A stretch of 64,000 bases of DNA from Escherichia phage N2. The DNA is taken from sequence record ON645936.1. One strand, written 5' to 3'. Each line of letters begins with the position of its first letter. Position 1 is the stretch's first letter. Below the pieces are notes generated by a model. The model saw nothing but the letters and a program-made list of their open reading frames with translations. It was not told the origin of the DNA and made no database searches. Positions 12,668 through 16,386 of this stretch are shown here, piece after piece. The position numbers were made by a program, and so were the translations under genes.

Positions 12668-13258
12668 ATGCTCTTTACATTTTTTGATCCGATTGAATAT
12701 GCGGCCAAAACGGTGAATAAAAACGCGCCGACTATTCCTATGACAGATATTTTTAGAAACTATAAAGACTATTTCAAACGTGCTCTTGCGGGATACCGTT
12801 TACGCACTTATTATATTAAAGGTTCACCACGCCCGGAAGAATTAGCAAATGCTATATATGGAAATCCGCAGTTGTATTGGGTTTTATTGATGTGTAATGA
12901 TAATTATGATCCGTATTATGGATGGATTACTTCGCAAGAAGCTGCTTATCAAGCATCTATACAAAAATACAAAAACGTAGGTGGAGACCAAATAGTATAT
13001 CATGTGAATGAGAATGGTGAAAAATTTTATAATTTAATATCATACGATGATAATCCGTATGTTTGGTATGACAAAGGCGATAAAGCCAGAAAATATCCTC
13101 AATATGAAGGAGCACTTGCTGCGGTCGATACGTATGAAGCTGCTGTTCTTGAAAATGAAAAACTTCGTCAAATAAAAATAATAGCAAAATCAGACATTAA
13201 TTCATTTATGAACGACCTTATACGTATAATGGAGAAATCTTATGGAAATGATAAGTAA
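12668..13258 (+). CDS. 53: Baseplate wedge protein gp53
   Basis: 196 aa, same as T4 gp53; synteny before gene 5. Confidence 0.9.
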   Translation: MLFTFFDPIEYAAKTVNKNAPTIPMTDIFRNYKDYFKRALAGYRLRTYYIKGSPRPEELANAIYGNPQLYWVLLMCNDNYDPYYGWITSQEAAYQASIQKYKNVGGDQIVYHVNENGEKFYNLISYDDNPYVWYDKGDKARKYPQYEGALAAVDTYEAAVLENEKLRQIKIIAKSDINSFMNDLIRIMEKSYGNDK

Positions 13259-14972
13259 TAACCTCAACTGGTTTGTTGGTGTTGTTGAAGATAGAATGGA
13301 CCCATTAAAATTAGGTCGTGTTCGTGTTCGTGTGGTTGGTCTGCATCCACCCCAAAGAGCGCAAGGCGATGTAATGGGTATTCCAACCGATAAATTGCCA
13401 TGGATGTCAGTTATTCAACCGATAACTTCTGCAGCAATGTCTGGAATTGGAGGTTCTGTTACAGGACCAGTAGAAGGAACTAGAGTTTATGGTCATTTTT
13501 TAGACAAATGGAAAACTAACGGAATTGTCCTTGGCACGTATGGTGGGATAGTTCGCGAAAAACCTAATAGACTTGAAGGATTTTCTGACCCAACTGGGCA
13601 GTATCCTAGACGTCTAGGAAATGATACTAACGTATTAAACCAAGGCGGAGAAGTAGGATATGATTCGTCTTCTAACATTATCCAAGATAGCAATCTAGAC
13701 ACTGCGATAAATCCTGATGATAGACCGCTATCAGAGATTCCAACTGATGATAATCCAAATATGTCAATGGCTGAAATGCTTCGCCGTGATGAAGGATTAA
13801 GACTAAAAGTTTATTGGGATACAGAAGGATATCCGACAATTGGTATTGGTCATCTTATCATGAAGCAGCCAGTTCGTGATATGGCCCAAATTAATAAAGT
13901 TTTATCAAAACAAGTTGGTCGTGAAATTACCGGAAATCCAGGTTCTATTACAATGGAAGAAGCGGTAACTTTATTTGAACGTGATTTGGCTGATATGCAA
14001 CGTGACATTAAATTACATTCTAAAGTTGGCCCAGTTTGGCAGGCAGTTAATCGTTCTCGTCAAATGGCATTAGAAAATATGGCATTTCAGATGGGCGTCG
14101 GCGGTGTAGCTAAATTTAACACAATGTTAACTGCTATGTTAGCCGGAGATTGGGAAAAAGCATACAAAGCCGGTCGTGATTCATTATGGTATCAACAAAC
14201 AAAAGGCCGTGCATCCCGTGTTACCATGATTATTCTTACAGGGAATTTGGAATCATACGGTATTGAAGTGAAAACTCCAGCTAGGTCTTTATCAGCAATG
14301 GCTGCTACTGTAGCAAAGTCTTCTGACCCGGCTGACCCTCCTATTCCGAATGATTCGAGAATTTTATTCAAAGAACCTGTTTCTTCATATAAAGGTGAAT
14401 ATCCGTATGTTCACACAATGGAAACTGAAAGCGGTCATATTCAGGAATTTGATGATACCCCTGGGCAAGAACGATACAGATTAGTTCATCCGACTGGAAC
14501 GTATGAGGAAGTATCACCATCAGGAAGAAGAACAAGAAAAACTGTTGATAATTTGTATGATATAACAAATGCTGATGGTAATTTTTTAGTAGCCGGCGAT
14601 AAAAAGACTAACGTCGGTGGATCAGAAATTTATTACAACATGGATAATCGTCTTCACCAAATAGATGGAAGCAACACAATATTTGTGCGTGGCGATGAAA
14701 CTAAGACAGTTGAAGGTAATGGAACTATCCTAGTCAAAGGTAATGTTACTATTGTAGTTGAAGGTAATGCTGACATTACAGTTAAAGGAGATGCTACTAC
14801 TTTAGTTGAAGGAAATCAGACTAATACAGTAAATGGAAATCTTTCTTGGAAAGTTGCTGGGACAGTTGATTGGGACGTTGGTGGCGATTGGACAGAAAAA
14901 ATGGCATCTATGAGTTCTATTTCATCTGGTCAATACACAATTGATGGTAGCCGTATAGACGTAGGTTTATAA
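13242..14972 (+). CDS. 5: Baseplate hub + tail lysozyme gp5 (cell-puncturing device)
   Basis: 576 aa; MEMISNNLNWFVGVV N-terminus; internal lysozyme domain (MAEMLRRDEGLRLKVYWDTEGYPTIGIGHL); C-terminal VxGxxxxx beta-helix repeats. Confidence 0.95.
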   Translation: MEMISNNLNWFVGVVEDRMDPLKLGRVRVRVVGLHPPQRAQGDVMGIPTDKLPWMSVIQPITSAAMSGIGGSVTGPVEGTRVYGHFLDKWKTNGIVLGTYGGIVREKPNRLEGFSDPTGQYPRRLGNDTNVLNQGGEVGYDSSSNIIQDSNLDTAINPDDRPLSEIPTDDNPNMSMAEMLRRDEGLRLKVYWDTEGYPTIGIGHLIMKQPVRDMAQINKVLSKQVGREITGNPGSITMEEAVTLFERDLADMQRDIKLHSKVGPVWQAVNRSRQMALENMAFQMGVGGVAKFNTMLTAMLAGDWEKAYKAGRDSLWYQQTKGRASRVTMIILTGNLESYGIEVKTPARSLSAMAATVAKSSDPADPPIPNDSRILFKEPVSSYKGEYPYVHTMETESGHIQEFDDTPGQERYRLVHPTGTYEEVSPSGRRTRKTVDNLYDITNADGNFLVAGDKKTNVGGSEIYYNMDNRLHQIDGSNTIFVRGDETKTVEGNGTILVKGNVTIVVEGNADITVKGDATTLVEGNQTNTVNGNLSWKVAGTVDWDVGGDWTEKMASMSSISSGQYTIDGSRIDVGL

Positions 14973-14990
14973 ATAATTCAGAGGTGAATT

Positions 14991-15857
14991 ATGAAAAAAT
15001 CTAACACTGTTCAATTTAGATACATATATAAAACAACCGTTACTAATCCGAAAGGATTAGTACGTGTTTATATTGGTAAACATGAATCTAGATATTTTGA
15101 TTTAGAAAATGACAAGTATATAGGTTCCGGTGATTATATTAAAAAGATACGCAATAAACCTGGTTATAAAATAGATTTTGAAATAATTGAATTTGTTTCT
15201 ACTTATGAAATTCTTAATTTAAGAGAAAGGTATTGGATTTCGAAATATAAATCATCTGACATTCTATGTACCAATATAAAATCCGGCGGTGATGGTTTTT
15301 CATCCGAAGATTTGAAGAGAATGTGGTCTAATCCTGAATATAGGAAAGCTCAATTGAAGGCATTAGCTAAATCAACGTCAACTAAAGAATTTTCAGAGAA
15401 AATATCTAAAATAAACAAAGAAAGATGCGCATCACCAGAATATCGAAAGAAAATGAGTAATGCGATGAAAACTGCTTTTGAAAATGACCCAACATTAAAA
15501 ATTCGTATTTCTAATACCGTTAAATCTTTATGGAAATCCGATGAATACAGAAATAAATTAATCAATCATCCAGGAAAAATAGAAGGAACGAAACAATCAT
15601 GGAATGATCCTTTGATAAGAAAATCGAGATTAGATGCTAGAAATAAAAAACTAAGATCAGTTGAACCTTGGATTAGTATAGAAAAAGTCAAAAAACTTTG
15701 GGAGGATTTGGGAAAACCACATCCACAGAAATACAAATGGTTTAGAGAAAAAGCAATTGAACATGACCTCCCGGATGTAAGTTATAACGCAATTTTAAAA
15801 GCTTTGAAAAAATGTGATTATAAATTTACATCATTAGAGAATTCAACAATTGGCTAA
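14991..15857 (+). mobile_element. GIY-YIG homing endonuclease gene (Seg-like) inserted between genes 5 and 5.1
   Basis: 288 aa ORF; N-terminal GIY-YIG (YIYKTTVTNPKGLVRVYIGKH...YIGSGDY); repeated NUMOD-like DNA-binding motifs (WSNPEYRKAQ, ASPEYRKKMS, WKSDEYRNKL). Confidence 0.8.
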
Positions 15858-15891
15858 TATACTTCCAATGAGCGCTGATTTAGGAGAATCC

Positions 15892-16386
15892 ATGGAAGGT
15901 TCTTCTATCGACGTCACCTTTACCGCTCAATTAGAAACGGGTGAAACGTTAGTATCTATAAATATAACTAGTTACGAAGAAACTCCTGGGGTTTTAGTAG
16001 AAGAAAATCGTTTATATGGAACGTATGAATCTGTATTTGGATTTGGAAATGATGCGCTGAAATATCGTTTAGATAATGAATTTAAAACTGCTTCTTCATG
16101 GGAAGACCTTCCAACTGATTCTAATACTCAGTTATATTTATGGAAAGCTCCTCAAAACCTCCAGAAGACATTCACTTACGAAGTAACATTAATATATGAC
16201 TACCAAGAACAAGGTGAATCTGGAGGTTCTAGCAGTAATTCTAGGTCATCTTCTGATACTACTGAACCAACGAATCCTCCAGCTCCAATAAGAAAAACCC
16301 TTGTTAAAAATTATACAAAAACTATAGTTGGAAATTGGAGTCGTTGGGCTAATAAATTGAGAAGCTACGTGTATGAGAGGCCATAA
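15892..16386 (+). CDS. 5.1: gp5.1-like protein, hypothetical
   Basis: 164 aa from ATG at 15892 with AGGAG RBS; Ser-rich linker; position between gene 5 and 5.4. Confidence 0.6.

What the first reader, a model, noticed from the sequence alone, without database searches (positions are those of the whole stretch)
14991..15857. GIY-YIG homing endonuclease gene inside the baseplate operon, between genes 5 and 5.1
A 288-aa ORF with a clear N-terminal GIY-YIG module and three NUMOD-like repeats sits 18 nt after gene 5, with its own RBS. It is a free-standing mobile gene within a late structural operon. Its cleavage site probably lies in gene 5 or 5.1 of phages lacking the insert, which would drive marker exclusion in mixed infections.
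Basis: partly seen in the sequence, partly recalled or inferred. Interest (0 to 1): 0.45.

Follow-up and report, generated by a model that had tools for sequence, protein, structure and literature searches.

The report
Seg-type homing endonuclease gene after gene 5
A selfish, mobile nuclease gene of the well-known T4 "Seg" kind sits just after the essential tail-spike gene 5 in this T4-like phage, as it does in phage T6 and a few relatives. It brings its own rewritten copy of the end of gene 5, so it is a tidy but ordinary example of a known type of element.

Summary
The 288-aa ORF at 14991-15857 is real and lies 18 nt after gene 5 with a GAGG ribosome-binding site. It is under strong purifying selection (dN/dS about 0.09).

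**Distribution.** The gene is sporadic: 29 Tequatrovirus records carry it (T6 included) and 481 have an intact empty site. Three F2-type records carry it and about 150 do not.

**Insertion.** The insert is 901 nt at 29% G+C. It replaces 13 nt inside the end of gene 5 and supplies a recoded gene 5 terminus and a TATAAATA late-promoter motif. The ORF ends on gene 5's original stop codon.

**Mobility.** Phage F2 carries the element on a Mosigvirus-type backbone with 44 nt of Tequatrovirus-type flank, a co-conversion-like footprint.

Cleavage and homing are inferred, not shown. Public records already annotate the gene as Seg-like. It is a new member of a known kind, of modest interest.

The parts
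13242..14972 (+). Gene 5 (baseplate hub / tail lysozyme), the host gene. Its 3' end was invaded and rebuilt by the element.
   Evidence: Pfam Gp5_OB 2e-65, Phage_lysozyme and Gp5_C. Annotated as gene 5 in T4 and T6.
14948..15848 (+). The inserted DNA: 901 nt at 29.4% G+C. It replaces 13 nt (ATCGAGGATTGAC) of the empty site.
   Evidence: Alignment with insert-free Solly and T4. Its G+C is in the lowest 0.2% of 901-nt windows; the window mean is 36.0%.
14948..14972 (+). Recoded replacement for the end of gene 5. It reads GGT AGC CGT ATA GAC GTA GGT TTA TAA (the GG of the first codon, 14946-14947, belongs to the shared flank) and encodes GSRIDVGL*. Empty-site phages have GGA TCG AGG ATT GAC ATT GGC TAA, encoding GSRIDIG*.
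   Evidence: This sequence occurs in exactly the 29 records that carry the ORF. GGTAGCCGT is also kept in F2 and in metagenomic locus L012.
14968..14975 (+). TATAAATA, a match to the T4 late-promoter consensus. It is created by the insert and overlaps the new gene 5 stop codon.
   Evidence: 24 matches in the window against 10 expected. Conserved in F2 and L012. Annotated as 'predicted late promoter' in fPS-2. Absent from the empty site.
14981..14984 (+). Shine-Dalgarno GAGG, 6 nt before the ATG.
   Evidence: Conserved in T6, F2 and L012.
14991..15857 (+). The seg-like ORF, 288 aa.
15015..15296 (+). GIY-YIG nuclease domain, residues 9-102. Key residues are Y11/Y13, Y27-I28-G29, Y43-x-G45-S46-G47, K56, E79 and N95.
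15324..15620 (+). Four helical repeats with the motif [W/C]-x-[SND]-[PD]-[EL]-[YI]-R, starting at residues 112, 146, 181 and 204. Presumed extended DNA-binding linker.
   Evidence: pairwise scores up to z = 7 against shuffles. The same motif, WSTPEYR, occurs in SegB. All-helical in the model.
15678..15812 (+). Three C-terminal helices, residues 230-274. Possibly a helix-turn-helix.
15849..15857 (+). ATT GGC TAA: the original last two codons and stop codon of gene 5, now read in frame as the end of the seg ORF.
   Evidence: The empty site ends ...GAC ATT GGC TAA and the ORF ends ...ACA ATT GGC TAA.
15892..16386 (+). Gene 5.1, the downstream neighbour. The T4/T6-type start is preceded by AGGAG.

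Best explanation
The ORF encodes a free-standing, Seg-family GIY-YIG homing endonuclease, and the 901-nt insert around it is a self-contained mobile cassette.

Shown:
- The cassette sits inside the last codons of essential gene 5.
- It supplies a recoded replacement for those codons, so gp5 keeps its C-terminus (GSRID[I/V]G, plus one Leu).
- It carries a TATAAATA late-promoter motif and an RBS.
- Its ORF runs into gene 5's original ATT GGC TAA.
- It is sporadically distributed in two phage backbones, and on one of them it carries a short tract of foreign flank.

Inferred:
- In a mixed infection the enzyme is made late in infection.
- It binds through four W-x-x-P-E-Y-R helical repeats and a C-terminal helical bundle to the highly conserved empty site at the gene 5 / 5.1 junction (around ...CAATACACAATTGATGG|ATCGAGGATTGAC|ATTGGCTAATATACTTCC...).
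- It makes a double-strand break there, or within a few tens of base pairs.
- Recombinational repair from the insert-bearing genome copies the cassette and short flanks into the cut genome.
- The carrier genome is protected because the site is split by the insert and its left half is rewritten at 10 of 21 positions.
For: Family:
- PHROG 314 'homing endonuclease', E 1e-25.
- A profile of 13 homologs hits the I-TevI catalytic domain (1LN0), E 1.7e-6. In that alignment Y13, Y27, E79 and N95 fall on I-TevI Y6, Y17, E75 and N90.
- E79, N95, Y27 and G29 are invariant in 88 homologs.
- 65 of 88 homologs hit Pfam SegE_GIY-YIG and 34 hit GIY-YIG.
- 26% identity (E 2e-9) to the window's own SegB, which is 96% identical to T4 SegB. 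SegB is an experimentally proven endonuclease whose Y17/G19 are essential (PMC2330249, PMC13096335). These residues align with Y27/G29 here.

Functional constraint: dN/dS is 0.09 against the F2 copy, and synonymous sites in the nuclease half are saturated.

Mobility:
- The insert is present in 29 Tequatrovirus records. The empty 60-mer is intact in 481 records and at least 99% identical in 478 hits, including T2 and T4.
- It is present in 3 F2-type records and absent from about 150 close relatives.
- Insert-bearing and insert-free phages share both flank haplotypes. No SNP is fixed between the two groups in 1017 nt on the left or 480 nt on the right.
- F2 equals its insert-free relative G2469 except for the insert, 44 nt of Tequatrovirus-identical gene 5 sequence on the left (13 differences from G2469), and ATTGGCTAATATACTTCC on the right.
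- The insert has 29.4% G+C against 36% for the window.
- The nearest paralogs sit at other intergenic sites in other T4-like phages.

Precedent for cutting near the insertion site: SegE cleaves the same intergenic region that holds its gene (PMC2330249).
Against: - No biochemical or genetic data exist for this protein. None was found in five literature searches.
- The sequence itself fails Pfam GIY-YIG, SegE_GIY-YIG and NUMOD3.
- The first motif starts with R rather than G, and the hairpin carries a 4-residue insertion.
- No equivalent of the I-TevI catalytic Arg27 can be aligned.
- Characterised free-standing endonucleases often cut hundreds of base pairs from their gene (PMC2988022).
- SegD cuts DNA but does not home (title cited in PMC10448857).
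- F2's element is mosaic: its 5' half is 72% and its 3' half 95% identical to the window. Its history therefore involves more than one event, and ordinary homologous recombination could also produce short converted flanks.
Confidence: 0.6

Rival explanations
1. The protein is an active Seg nuclease, but it does not home into the gene 5 / 5.1 junction. Either it cuts at a distant or degenerate site, including sites in its own genome as SegB does, or like SegD it cuts without driving inheritance of its gene. Its present distribution would then reflect older events or general recombination.
For: Free-standing endonucleases commonly cleave hundreds to thousands of base pairs from their gene (PMC2988022). 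T4 itself contains SegB sites (PMC2330249). SegD does not initiate homing (reference listed in PMC10448857). The catalytic residues and the low dN/dS fit any active nuclease.
Against: No sequence difference other than the junction separates insert-bearing from insert-free alleles within 1 kb on the left or 0.5 kb on the right. The F2 converted tract is confined to 44 nt and at most 18 nt around the insert. GGTAGCCGT at the junction is kept in three lineages whose ORFs differ by 14-22% at the protein level.
Confidence: 0.2
2. The nuclease is catalytically dead or re-purposed. The protein is kept as a DNA-binding factor, or the cassette is kept because its late promoter now serves genes 5.1, 5.4 and 6.
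For: No Pfam GIY-YIG hit. The first motif has R for G, the hairpin has a 4-residue insertion, and there is no Arg27 equivalent. The insert creates a TATAAATA upstream of the downstream baseplate genes, which the empty site lacks. The review notes that embedded promoters favour retention of endonuclease genes (PMC2988022).
Against: Y13, Y27, G29, E79 and N95 are all retained and invariant across 88 homologs. The nuclease half is under purifying selection despite saturated synonymous change. Arg27 is also missing from SegC, which is listed as active. More than 480 phages do well without the insert's promoter.
Confidence: 0.1
3. The gene is passive cargo. It was inserted once by illegitimate recombination in an unknown T4-like lineage. 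It has since spread only by ordinary homologous recombination between co-infecting phages, and the 'recoded' gene 5 end is simply the donor lineage's native sequence.
For: A third lineage (L012) carries the same architecture with uniformly diverged ORF and flanks, as expected for long vertical residence. T-even phages recombine very frequently (established knowledge). Crossovers in F2 lie at short shared stretches, GCAGAAA.AATG and ATACTTCC.
Against: A passive gene would not be expected to keep an intact 288-aa nuclease ORF at dN/dS 0.09. It belongs to a family whose tested members are homing enzymes (PMC2988022 Table 1). No insert-free phage with the recoded gene 5 end was found in 50,697 phage records, IMG/VR or JGI metagenomes.
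Confidence: 0.1

Closest known systems
T4 SegB: free-standing GIY-YIG homing endonuclease in the tRNA gene cluster. Also present in this window at 5677-6342, minus strand, 96% identical to T4 SegB.
   Same: 26% identity over 194 residues, E 2e-9. Shared features are Y-I-G, Y-x-G-S-G, K-[YP]-G, the catalytic Glu and Asn, G-G-x-G, and a W-x-x-P-E-Y-R motif downstream of the nuclease domain. Both are free-standing, in the same orientation as their neighbours, and absent from some close relatives.
   Different: The insertion site and presumed target differ: tRNA genes for SegB, the end of gene 5 here. SegB is 221 aa and contains NUMOD3 (PMC2330249). This protein is 288 aa with four W-x-x-P-E-Y-R repeats, no NUMOD3 hit, and a 4-residue insertion in the GIY-YIG hairpin. 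SegB activity is proven; this protein's is not.
T4 SegC: GIY-YIG homing endonuclease between genes 5.1 and 5.3, one gene downstream of this site.
   Same: Seg family, same late baseplate operon, same Y-V/I-G...Y-x-G-S-G...K-Y-G signature, and likewise no Arg in the Arg27 region.
   Different: A different intergenic site. Only 37% identity over 49 residues. SegC and gene 5.3 are absent from this window, where 5.1 abuts 5.4. A few phages (T4_ev151, LH2, Manna) carry both elements.
T4 SegE / Pfam PF19835 (SegE_GIY-YIG)
   Same: 65 of 88 homologs of this ORF hit PF19835. SegE cleaves the very intergenic region that holds its gene in phages lacking it, and homes at nearly 100% (PMC2330249). That geometry is the one inferred here.
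   Different: This ORF does not itself reach any PF19835 score at E<0.1. The locus is different.
I-TevI: td intron GIY-YIG homing endonuclease (PDB 1LN0, 1MK0)
   Different: I-TevI is intron-encoded. It has the alpha-1 helix with Arg27/His31 and a zinc finger, and the Seg clade lacks that helix. There is no intron here.
RB32ORF093c-type seg-like gene (annotated 'segE' in RB68), between nrdC.10 and nrdC.9
   Same: A close paralog outside the gene 5 clade in the phage collection (the top remote hits, in Klebsiella phages, lie at a similar nucleotidyltransferase-adjacent site). 28% identity over 186 residues, E 4e-16, including W-K-N-P-N-H and Y-K-D-P-V-F repeats.
   Different: A different genomic site. 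239 aa. Uncharacterised.

Membership tests
GIY-YIG nuclease superfamily (I-TevI-type catalytic domain) | 'GIY' strand with the first catalytic Tyr (I-TevI Y6) | tested here: met
   R10-Y11-I12-Y13. Y13 aligns with I-TevI Y6. Y11, I12 and Y13 are invariant in 13 homologs. The first residue is R instead of G.
GIY-YIG nuclease superfamily (I-TevI-type catalytic domain) | 'YIG' strand with the second Tyr (I-TevI Y17) | tested here: met
   Y27-I28-G29. Y27 and G29 are invariant in 88 homologs. They align with I-TevI Y17 and with SegB Y17/G19, whose mutation kills SegB (PMC13096335).
GIY-YIG nuclease superfamily (I-TevI-type catalytic domain) | 10-11 residues between the two motifs | tested here: not met
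   13 residues (KTTVTNPKGLVRV) against 10 in the other homologs. The 4-residue insertion is specific to the gene 5 clade.
GIY-YIG nuclease superfamily (I-TevI-type catalytic domain) | Catalytic Arg (I-TevI R27) on helix alpha-1 | tested here: not met
   HMM and MAFFT alignments place R27 in a segment that is deleted or variable in the whole Seg-like clade. No conserved Arg is present. T4 SegC, listed as active, has no Arg there either. Position 52 is K here, R in SegB and N in SegC. Model coordinates could not be inspected.
GIY-YIG nuclease superfamily (I-TevI-type catalytic domain) | Catalytic Glu (I-TevI E75) and metal-site Asn (N90) | tested here: met
   E79 and N95 are invariant in 88 homologs and align with E75 and N90.
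GIY-YIG nuclease superfamily (I-TevI-type catalytic domain) | Three-stranded sheet plus helices fold | tested here: met
GIY-YIG nuclease superfamily (I-TevI-type catalytic domain) | Score above the curated Pfam/NCBIfam thresholds (PF01541, PF19835, TIGR01453) | tested here: not met
   No Pfam hit at E<0.1. TIGR01453 scores 18.5 bits against a cut-off of 56. Homology is seen only at profile level.
Seg free-standing homing endonucleases of T-even phages | A stand-alone gene between conserved genes, not in an intron or intein, in the same orientation as its neighbours | tested here: met
   It lies between gene 5 and 5.1 on the + strand. Strictly, it is inserted within the last codons of gene 5, with a replacement terminus supplied.
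Seg free-standing homing endonucleases of T-even phages | Sporadic presence among close relatives, with a conserved empty site | tested here: met
   29 records carry the insert and 481 have an intact empty site in Tequatrovirus. 3 carry it and about 150 lack it among F2-type phages.
Seg free-standing homing endonucleases of T-even phages | Sequence homology to characterised Seg proteins | tested here: met
   SegB: 26% identity, E 2e-9. SegC: motif region 37% over 49 aa.
Seg free-standing homing endonucleases of T-even phages | Site-specific double-strand cleavage of the allele that lacks the gene | not testable with these tools
   Needs the protein and a DNA cleavage assay.
Seg free-standing homing endonucleases of T-even phages | Nuclease-dependent preferential inheritance with co-conversion of flanks | tested here: inconclusive
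   A natural footprint consistent with it exists in F2: 44 nt on the left and at most 18 nt on the right of foreign flank on a Mosigvirus-type backbone. This does not prove dependence on the nuclease.
NUMOD3 / I-TevI-type DNA-binding region | Pfam NUMOD3 (PF07460) or I-TevI_DNA-bd (PF20987) match | tested here: not met
   No hit for this protein. 23 and 18 of 88 homologs hit these families. This protein instead has four W-x-x-P-E-Y-R repeats.

The most novel reading that the evidence does not exclude
Many studied free-standing T4 endonucleases cut far from their gene. This element may instead behave like an intron endonuclease without an intron. On this reading it cuts within a few tens of base pairs of its own insertion point, inside the 3' end of an essential structural gene. 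It escapes self-cleavage and preserves the host gene by carrying a synonymously rewritten copy of that gene's last eight codons, and it has crossed between Tequatrovirus-type and Mosigvirus-type backbones with conversion tracts of only about 44 nt and at most 18 nt. A further unexcluded twist is I-TevI-like self-regulation: the late-promoter start point falls in the loop of a hairpin that hides the RBS and AUG in the window's variant.
Probability: 0.4. Interest if true: 0.4.

Novelty: new member of a known kind. Interest (0 to 1): 0.3.

Why it matters
If active, this would be one more Seg enzyme with a defined, highly conserved natural target: the gene 5 / 5.1 junction of T2, T4 and hundreds of relatives. 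It is carried by the classical laboratory phage T6, so it could be tested directly in T6 x T2 or T6 x T4 crosses.

It would give a local explanation for biased inheritance of baseplate-region markers. It would also be a clean example of how a selfish gene can enter the coding end of an essential gene without harming it. The F2 footprint documents transfer of the cassette between two Tevenvirinae backbones.

None of this changes current understanding of homing endonucleases. Public records already label the gene 'Seg-like' or 'homing endonuclease'.

Tried and rejected
- Pfam, NCBIfam and a direct PDB sequence search with the single protein gave no usable GIY-YIG hit. The assignment needed a family profile and a structural comparison.
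- I looked for an Arg27 equivalent in two alignments and found none. I could not inspect model coordinates to look for a structural substitute.
- I tested whether an RBS-sequestering hairpin, as in I-TevI and segB, is conserved. It folds at -5.9 kcal/mol (z = -3.8) in the window variant, but only -3.6 in T6, -3.1 in L012 and -0.6 in F2, with no compensating changes. It is not supported as a conserved feature.
- I looked for SNPs fixed between insert-bearing and insert-free Tequatrovirus flanks and found none in 1017 nt on the left or 480 nt on the right. No distant resistant-site variant is linked to the insert.
- I looked for an insert-free phage carrying the recoded gene 5 end, as a possible donor lineage or a product of loss. 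None turned up in the phage collection. IMG/VR returned only ZN18, which has the ORF, and JGI metagenomes returned nothing.
- I checked whether the nearest remote homologs sit at the same locus. They do not: they lie in the nrdC and nrdD regions.
- Five literature searches found no study of this gene.
- My initial recollection that T4 segD sits at this locus was wrong. T4 has segC between 5.1 and 5.3, and segD lies between genes 23 and 24.

Full report
**1.

The window is a T4-like phage of the Tequatrovirus type. It is 95-96% identical to T6 and other relatives over its first 25 kb and is not identical to any deposited genome.

Upstream lies gene 5 (13242-14972; Pfam Gp5_OB, lysozyme and Gp5_C). 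Downstream lie 5.1, 5.4 (PAAR) and gene 6. The gap after the gene 5 stop codon is 18 nt, and GAGG lies 6 nt before the ATG.

The exact protein sequence already exists in public data. UniRef names close variants 'Homing endonuclease'. GenBank records call it 'seg-like hypothetical protein, T6ncORF142' in T6, 'putative Seg-like homing endonuclease, GIY-YIG family' in vB_SsoM_113, and 'Phage-associated homing endonuclease' in fPS-2.

**2. Is it a GIY-YIG nuclease?**

Standard tools do not see it. Pfam gives no GIY-YIG, SegE_GIY-YIG or NUMOD3 hit at E<0.1. TIGR01453 reaches only E 0.0016, well below its cut-off. A direct PDB sequence search gives nothing.

Family-level evidence is clear:
- PHROG 314 'homing endonuclease', E 1e-25.
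- A profile of 13 homologs hits the I-TevI catalytic domain (1LN0) at E 1.7e-6.
- Of 88 aligned homologs, 65 hit Pfam SegE_GIY-YIG, 34 hit GIY-YIG, 23 hit NUMOD3 and 18 hit I-TevI_DNA-bd.
- An AlphaFold model built on that alignment has pLDDT about 90 over most of residues 9-100, about 68 in the residue 31-50 loop.
- Foldseek on the full-length model found nothing.

The protein is 26% identical (E 2e-9) to a SegB gene in the same window (5677-6342, minus strand). That gene is 96% identical to T4 SegB.

In the alignments, Y13, Y27, E79 and N95 fall on I-TevI Y6, Y17, E75 and N90. Y27, G29, E79 and N95 are invariant in all 88 homologs.

The catalytic Arg27 of I-TevI has no counterpart. The helix that carries it is missing from the whole Seg-like clade, which instead has an invariant Y-x-G-S-G and K-[Y/P]-G. 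T4 SegC is listed as active in Table 1 of PMC2988022 and also has no Arg in that stretch.

Two features are peculiar to the gene 5 clade: R instead of G at the start of the first motif, and a 4-residue insertion in the hairpin, giving 13 rather than 10 residues between the motifs.

**3. The rest of the protein**

Residues about 104-215 are helical. They contain four copies of [W/C]-x-[S/N/D]-[P/D]-[E/L]-[Y/I]-R, at residues 112, 146, 181 and 204. SegB has the same motif, WSTPEYR.

The repeats are not NUMOD3 by Pfam. They do occupy the linker where some homologs (P0008, P0012) have NUMOD3.

**4. Is it a working gene?**

Against the 86%-identical F2 copy, the overall dN/dS is 0.09. In the nuclease half, synonymous sites are saturated (pS 0.84) while pN is 0.14. 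This argues for a functional protein, nuclease domain included.

**5. Distribution**

- Megablast of the region found 662 records. Only 32 cover the ORF: 29 Tequatrovirus records (T6, ACG-C40, fPS-2, PYPS2T, ZN18, CE1 and others) and three F2/ZQ3 records.
- The 60-nt empty junction is intact (at least 80% covered) in 481 records, and 478 hits are at least 99% identical, including T2 and T4.
- T4 itself has no gene between 5 and 5.1. It has segC between 5.1 and 5.3.
- Among phages close to F2, all but three of about 150 lack the ORF.
- More distant homologs (28-34% identity) sit at other intergenic sites, in the nrdC and nrdD regions.

**6. Anatomy of the insertion**

This is the most informative result. 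The two junction types are:

| Allele | Sequence at the junction |
|---|---|
| Insert-free (T4, T2, Solly, fPS-65) | ...ACAATTGATGG ATCGAGGATTGAC ATTGGCTAA TATACTTCC... |
| Insert-bearing | ...ACAATTGATGG TAGCCGTATAGACGTAGGTTTATAA ATAATTCAGAGGTGAATT ATG...ORF...ACA ATTGGCTAA TATACTTCC... |

So 901 nt (14948-15848) replace 13 nt inside the end of gene 5.

- The insert begins with a rewritten copy of gene 5's last codons. GGT AGC CGT ATA GAC GTA GGT TTA TAA replaces GGA TCG AGG ATT GAC ATT GGC TAA. Ten of 21 positions change. The peptide GSRID[I/V]G is kept and one Leu is added.
- The seg ORF ends, in frame, on gene 5's original ATT GGC TAA.
- The rewritten end occurs in exactly the 29 records that have the ORF.
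- Its first nine bases, GGTAGCCGT, are also kept in F2 and in a third, uniformly diverged lineage recovered from a sequencing run (L012).
- The new gene 5 stop codon overlaps TATAAATA (14968-14975), the T4 late-promoter consensus. This motif is absent from the empty site, conserved in all three lineages, and annotated as a predicted late promoter in fPS-2.
- The insert has 29.4% G+C against a window mean of 36.0%, placing it in the lowest 0.2% of 901-nt windows.

**7. Evidence of movement**

Within Tequatrovirus there are two flank haplotypes, a Solly type and a T4/T2 type. Each contains both insert-bearing and insert-free phages. The window's flanks differ from insert-free Solly at 24 of 1017 positions on the left and 5 of 480 on the right. 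They differ from insert-bearing T6 at 54 and 27 positions. No SNP is fixed between the two groups.

A four-way alignment is sharper. F2 is identical to its insert-free Mosigvirus relative G2469 up to ...GCAGAAACAATG. It then carries 44 nt identical to Tequatrovirus gene 5, with 13 differences from G2469. Next come the rewritten end and the ORF, then Tequatrovirus-type ATTGGCTAATATACTTCC. From the shared ATACTTCC onward it returns to the G2469 sequence. This looks like a short co-conversion tract around a transferred cassette.

The history is not a single clean event. F2's ORF is only 72% identical to the window's in its 5' half but 95% identical in its 3' half.

**8. Mechanism**

Shown: the family membership, the purifying selection, the architecture, the sporadic distribution and the transfer footprint.

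Inferred: late expression; binding and double-strand cleavage at or near the empty junction; repair that copies the cassette; and immunity of the carrier because the site is split and rewritten.

The argument for a cut close to the junction has two parts. The junction is the only sequence that separates the two kinds of allele within 1 kb on the left and 0.5 kb on the right. The F2 tract is very short. SegE offers a precedent, since it cleaves the intergenic region that holds its own gene (PMC2330249).

Other cases argue for caution. Many free-standing enzymes cut far from their gene (PMC2988022). SegB also has sites in its own genome (PMC2330249). SegD does not home (title cited in PMC10448857).

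An I-TevI-style hairpin that hides the RBS and AUG, with the late-promoter start point in its loop, exists in the window's variant (-5.9 kcal/mol, z = -3.8). It is weakened in T6 and L012 and lost in F2, so I do not rely on it.

**9. Comparison, novelty and verdict**

The gene is a divergent, uncharacterised member of the Seg family of T-even free-standing GIY-YIG homing endonucleases. Its closest characterised relative is SegB. A close uncharacterised paralog is the RB32ORF093c-type gene.

It fails three formal membership features: the Pfam thresholds, the 10-11-residue motif spacing and the Arg27 equivalent. It meets the Tyr, Tyr, Glu and Asn positions and the fold criterion, and it shows the genomic hallmarks of the family.

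Five literature searches found no study of this gene, although databases already annotate it as Seg-like.

I rate it a new member of a known kind, with interest 0.3.

Noticed in passing
window 5677-6342 (- strand): A second Seg gene: SegB, 221 aa, 96% identical to T4 SegB. It lies between tRNA-Arg and the next tRNA, as in T4. It carries the same W-x-x-P-E-Y-R motif (WSTPEYR) as the ORF under study.
   Followed up: yes
window 5331-5424 (- strand): ARAGORN calls an unusually long (94-nt) tRNA-Lys(ttt) just beyond tRNA-Arg, roughly where T4 annotates the stable RNAs rnaC and rnaD. This could be a different tRNA complement or a mis-call.
   Followed up: no
window 16386/16387: Gene 5.1 abuts 5.4 directly. 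The segC and 5.3 genes that T4 has here are absent. A few phages (T4_ev151, LH2, SP21535, CJY920, Manna) carry both this ORF and a segC-type gene.
   Followed up: partly
L006 (phage F2) 2443-3306, compared with window 14991-15857: The F2 copy of the ORF is mosaic. Its 5' half (nuclease) is about 72% identical to the window at nucleotide level and its 3' half (DNA-binding region) about 95%, with the switch near window position 15440. This implies recombination between diverged alleles of the element.
   Followed up: partly
window 15850-15894; L003 2445-2999; L014 1615-2169: Some insert-free phages (Solly, T2) annotate a longer gene 5.1 that starts at an ATG inside the end of gene 5 (ATGGATCGAGG...). 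The insertion removes that ATG. T4 and T6 annotate the downstream ATG preceded by AGGAG (window 15892). If the long form is real, the insert truncates it.
   Followed up: partly
window 15957-15964 (+ strand): Another TATAAATA lies inside gene 5.1. It is conserved in T4, F2 and G2469 and is possibly a late promoter for 5.4 and gene 6.
   Followed up: no
model m297774ecf4e6 (ORF residues about 9-100): The best structural match is 9u75_A, described as the GIY-YIG 5hmC-specific restriction endonuclease PD-T4-3 of E. coli O157:H7. That is a bacterial anti-T4 nuclease with the same fold as the phage's own homing nucleases.
   Followed up: no
window about 14367-14640 (by correspondence with L005 3086-3356 and L002 1869-2003): T4 annotates the replication origin oriE and the small antisense ORF repEA inside gene 5, only about 330 bp upstream of the insertion point. 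Any link between the origin and the element was not examined.
   Followed up: no
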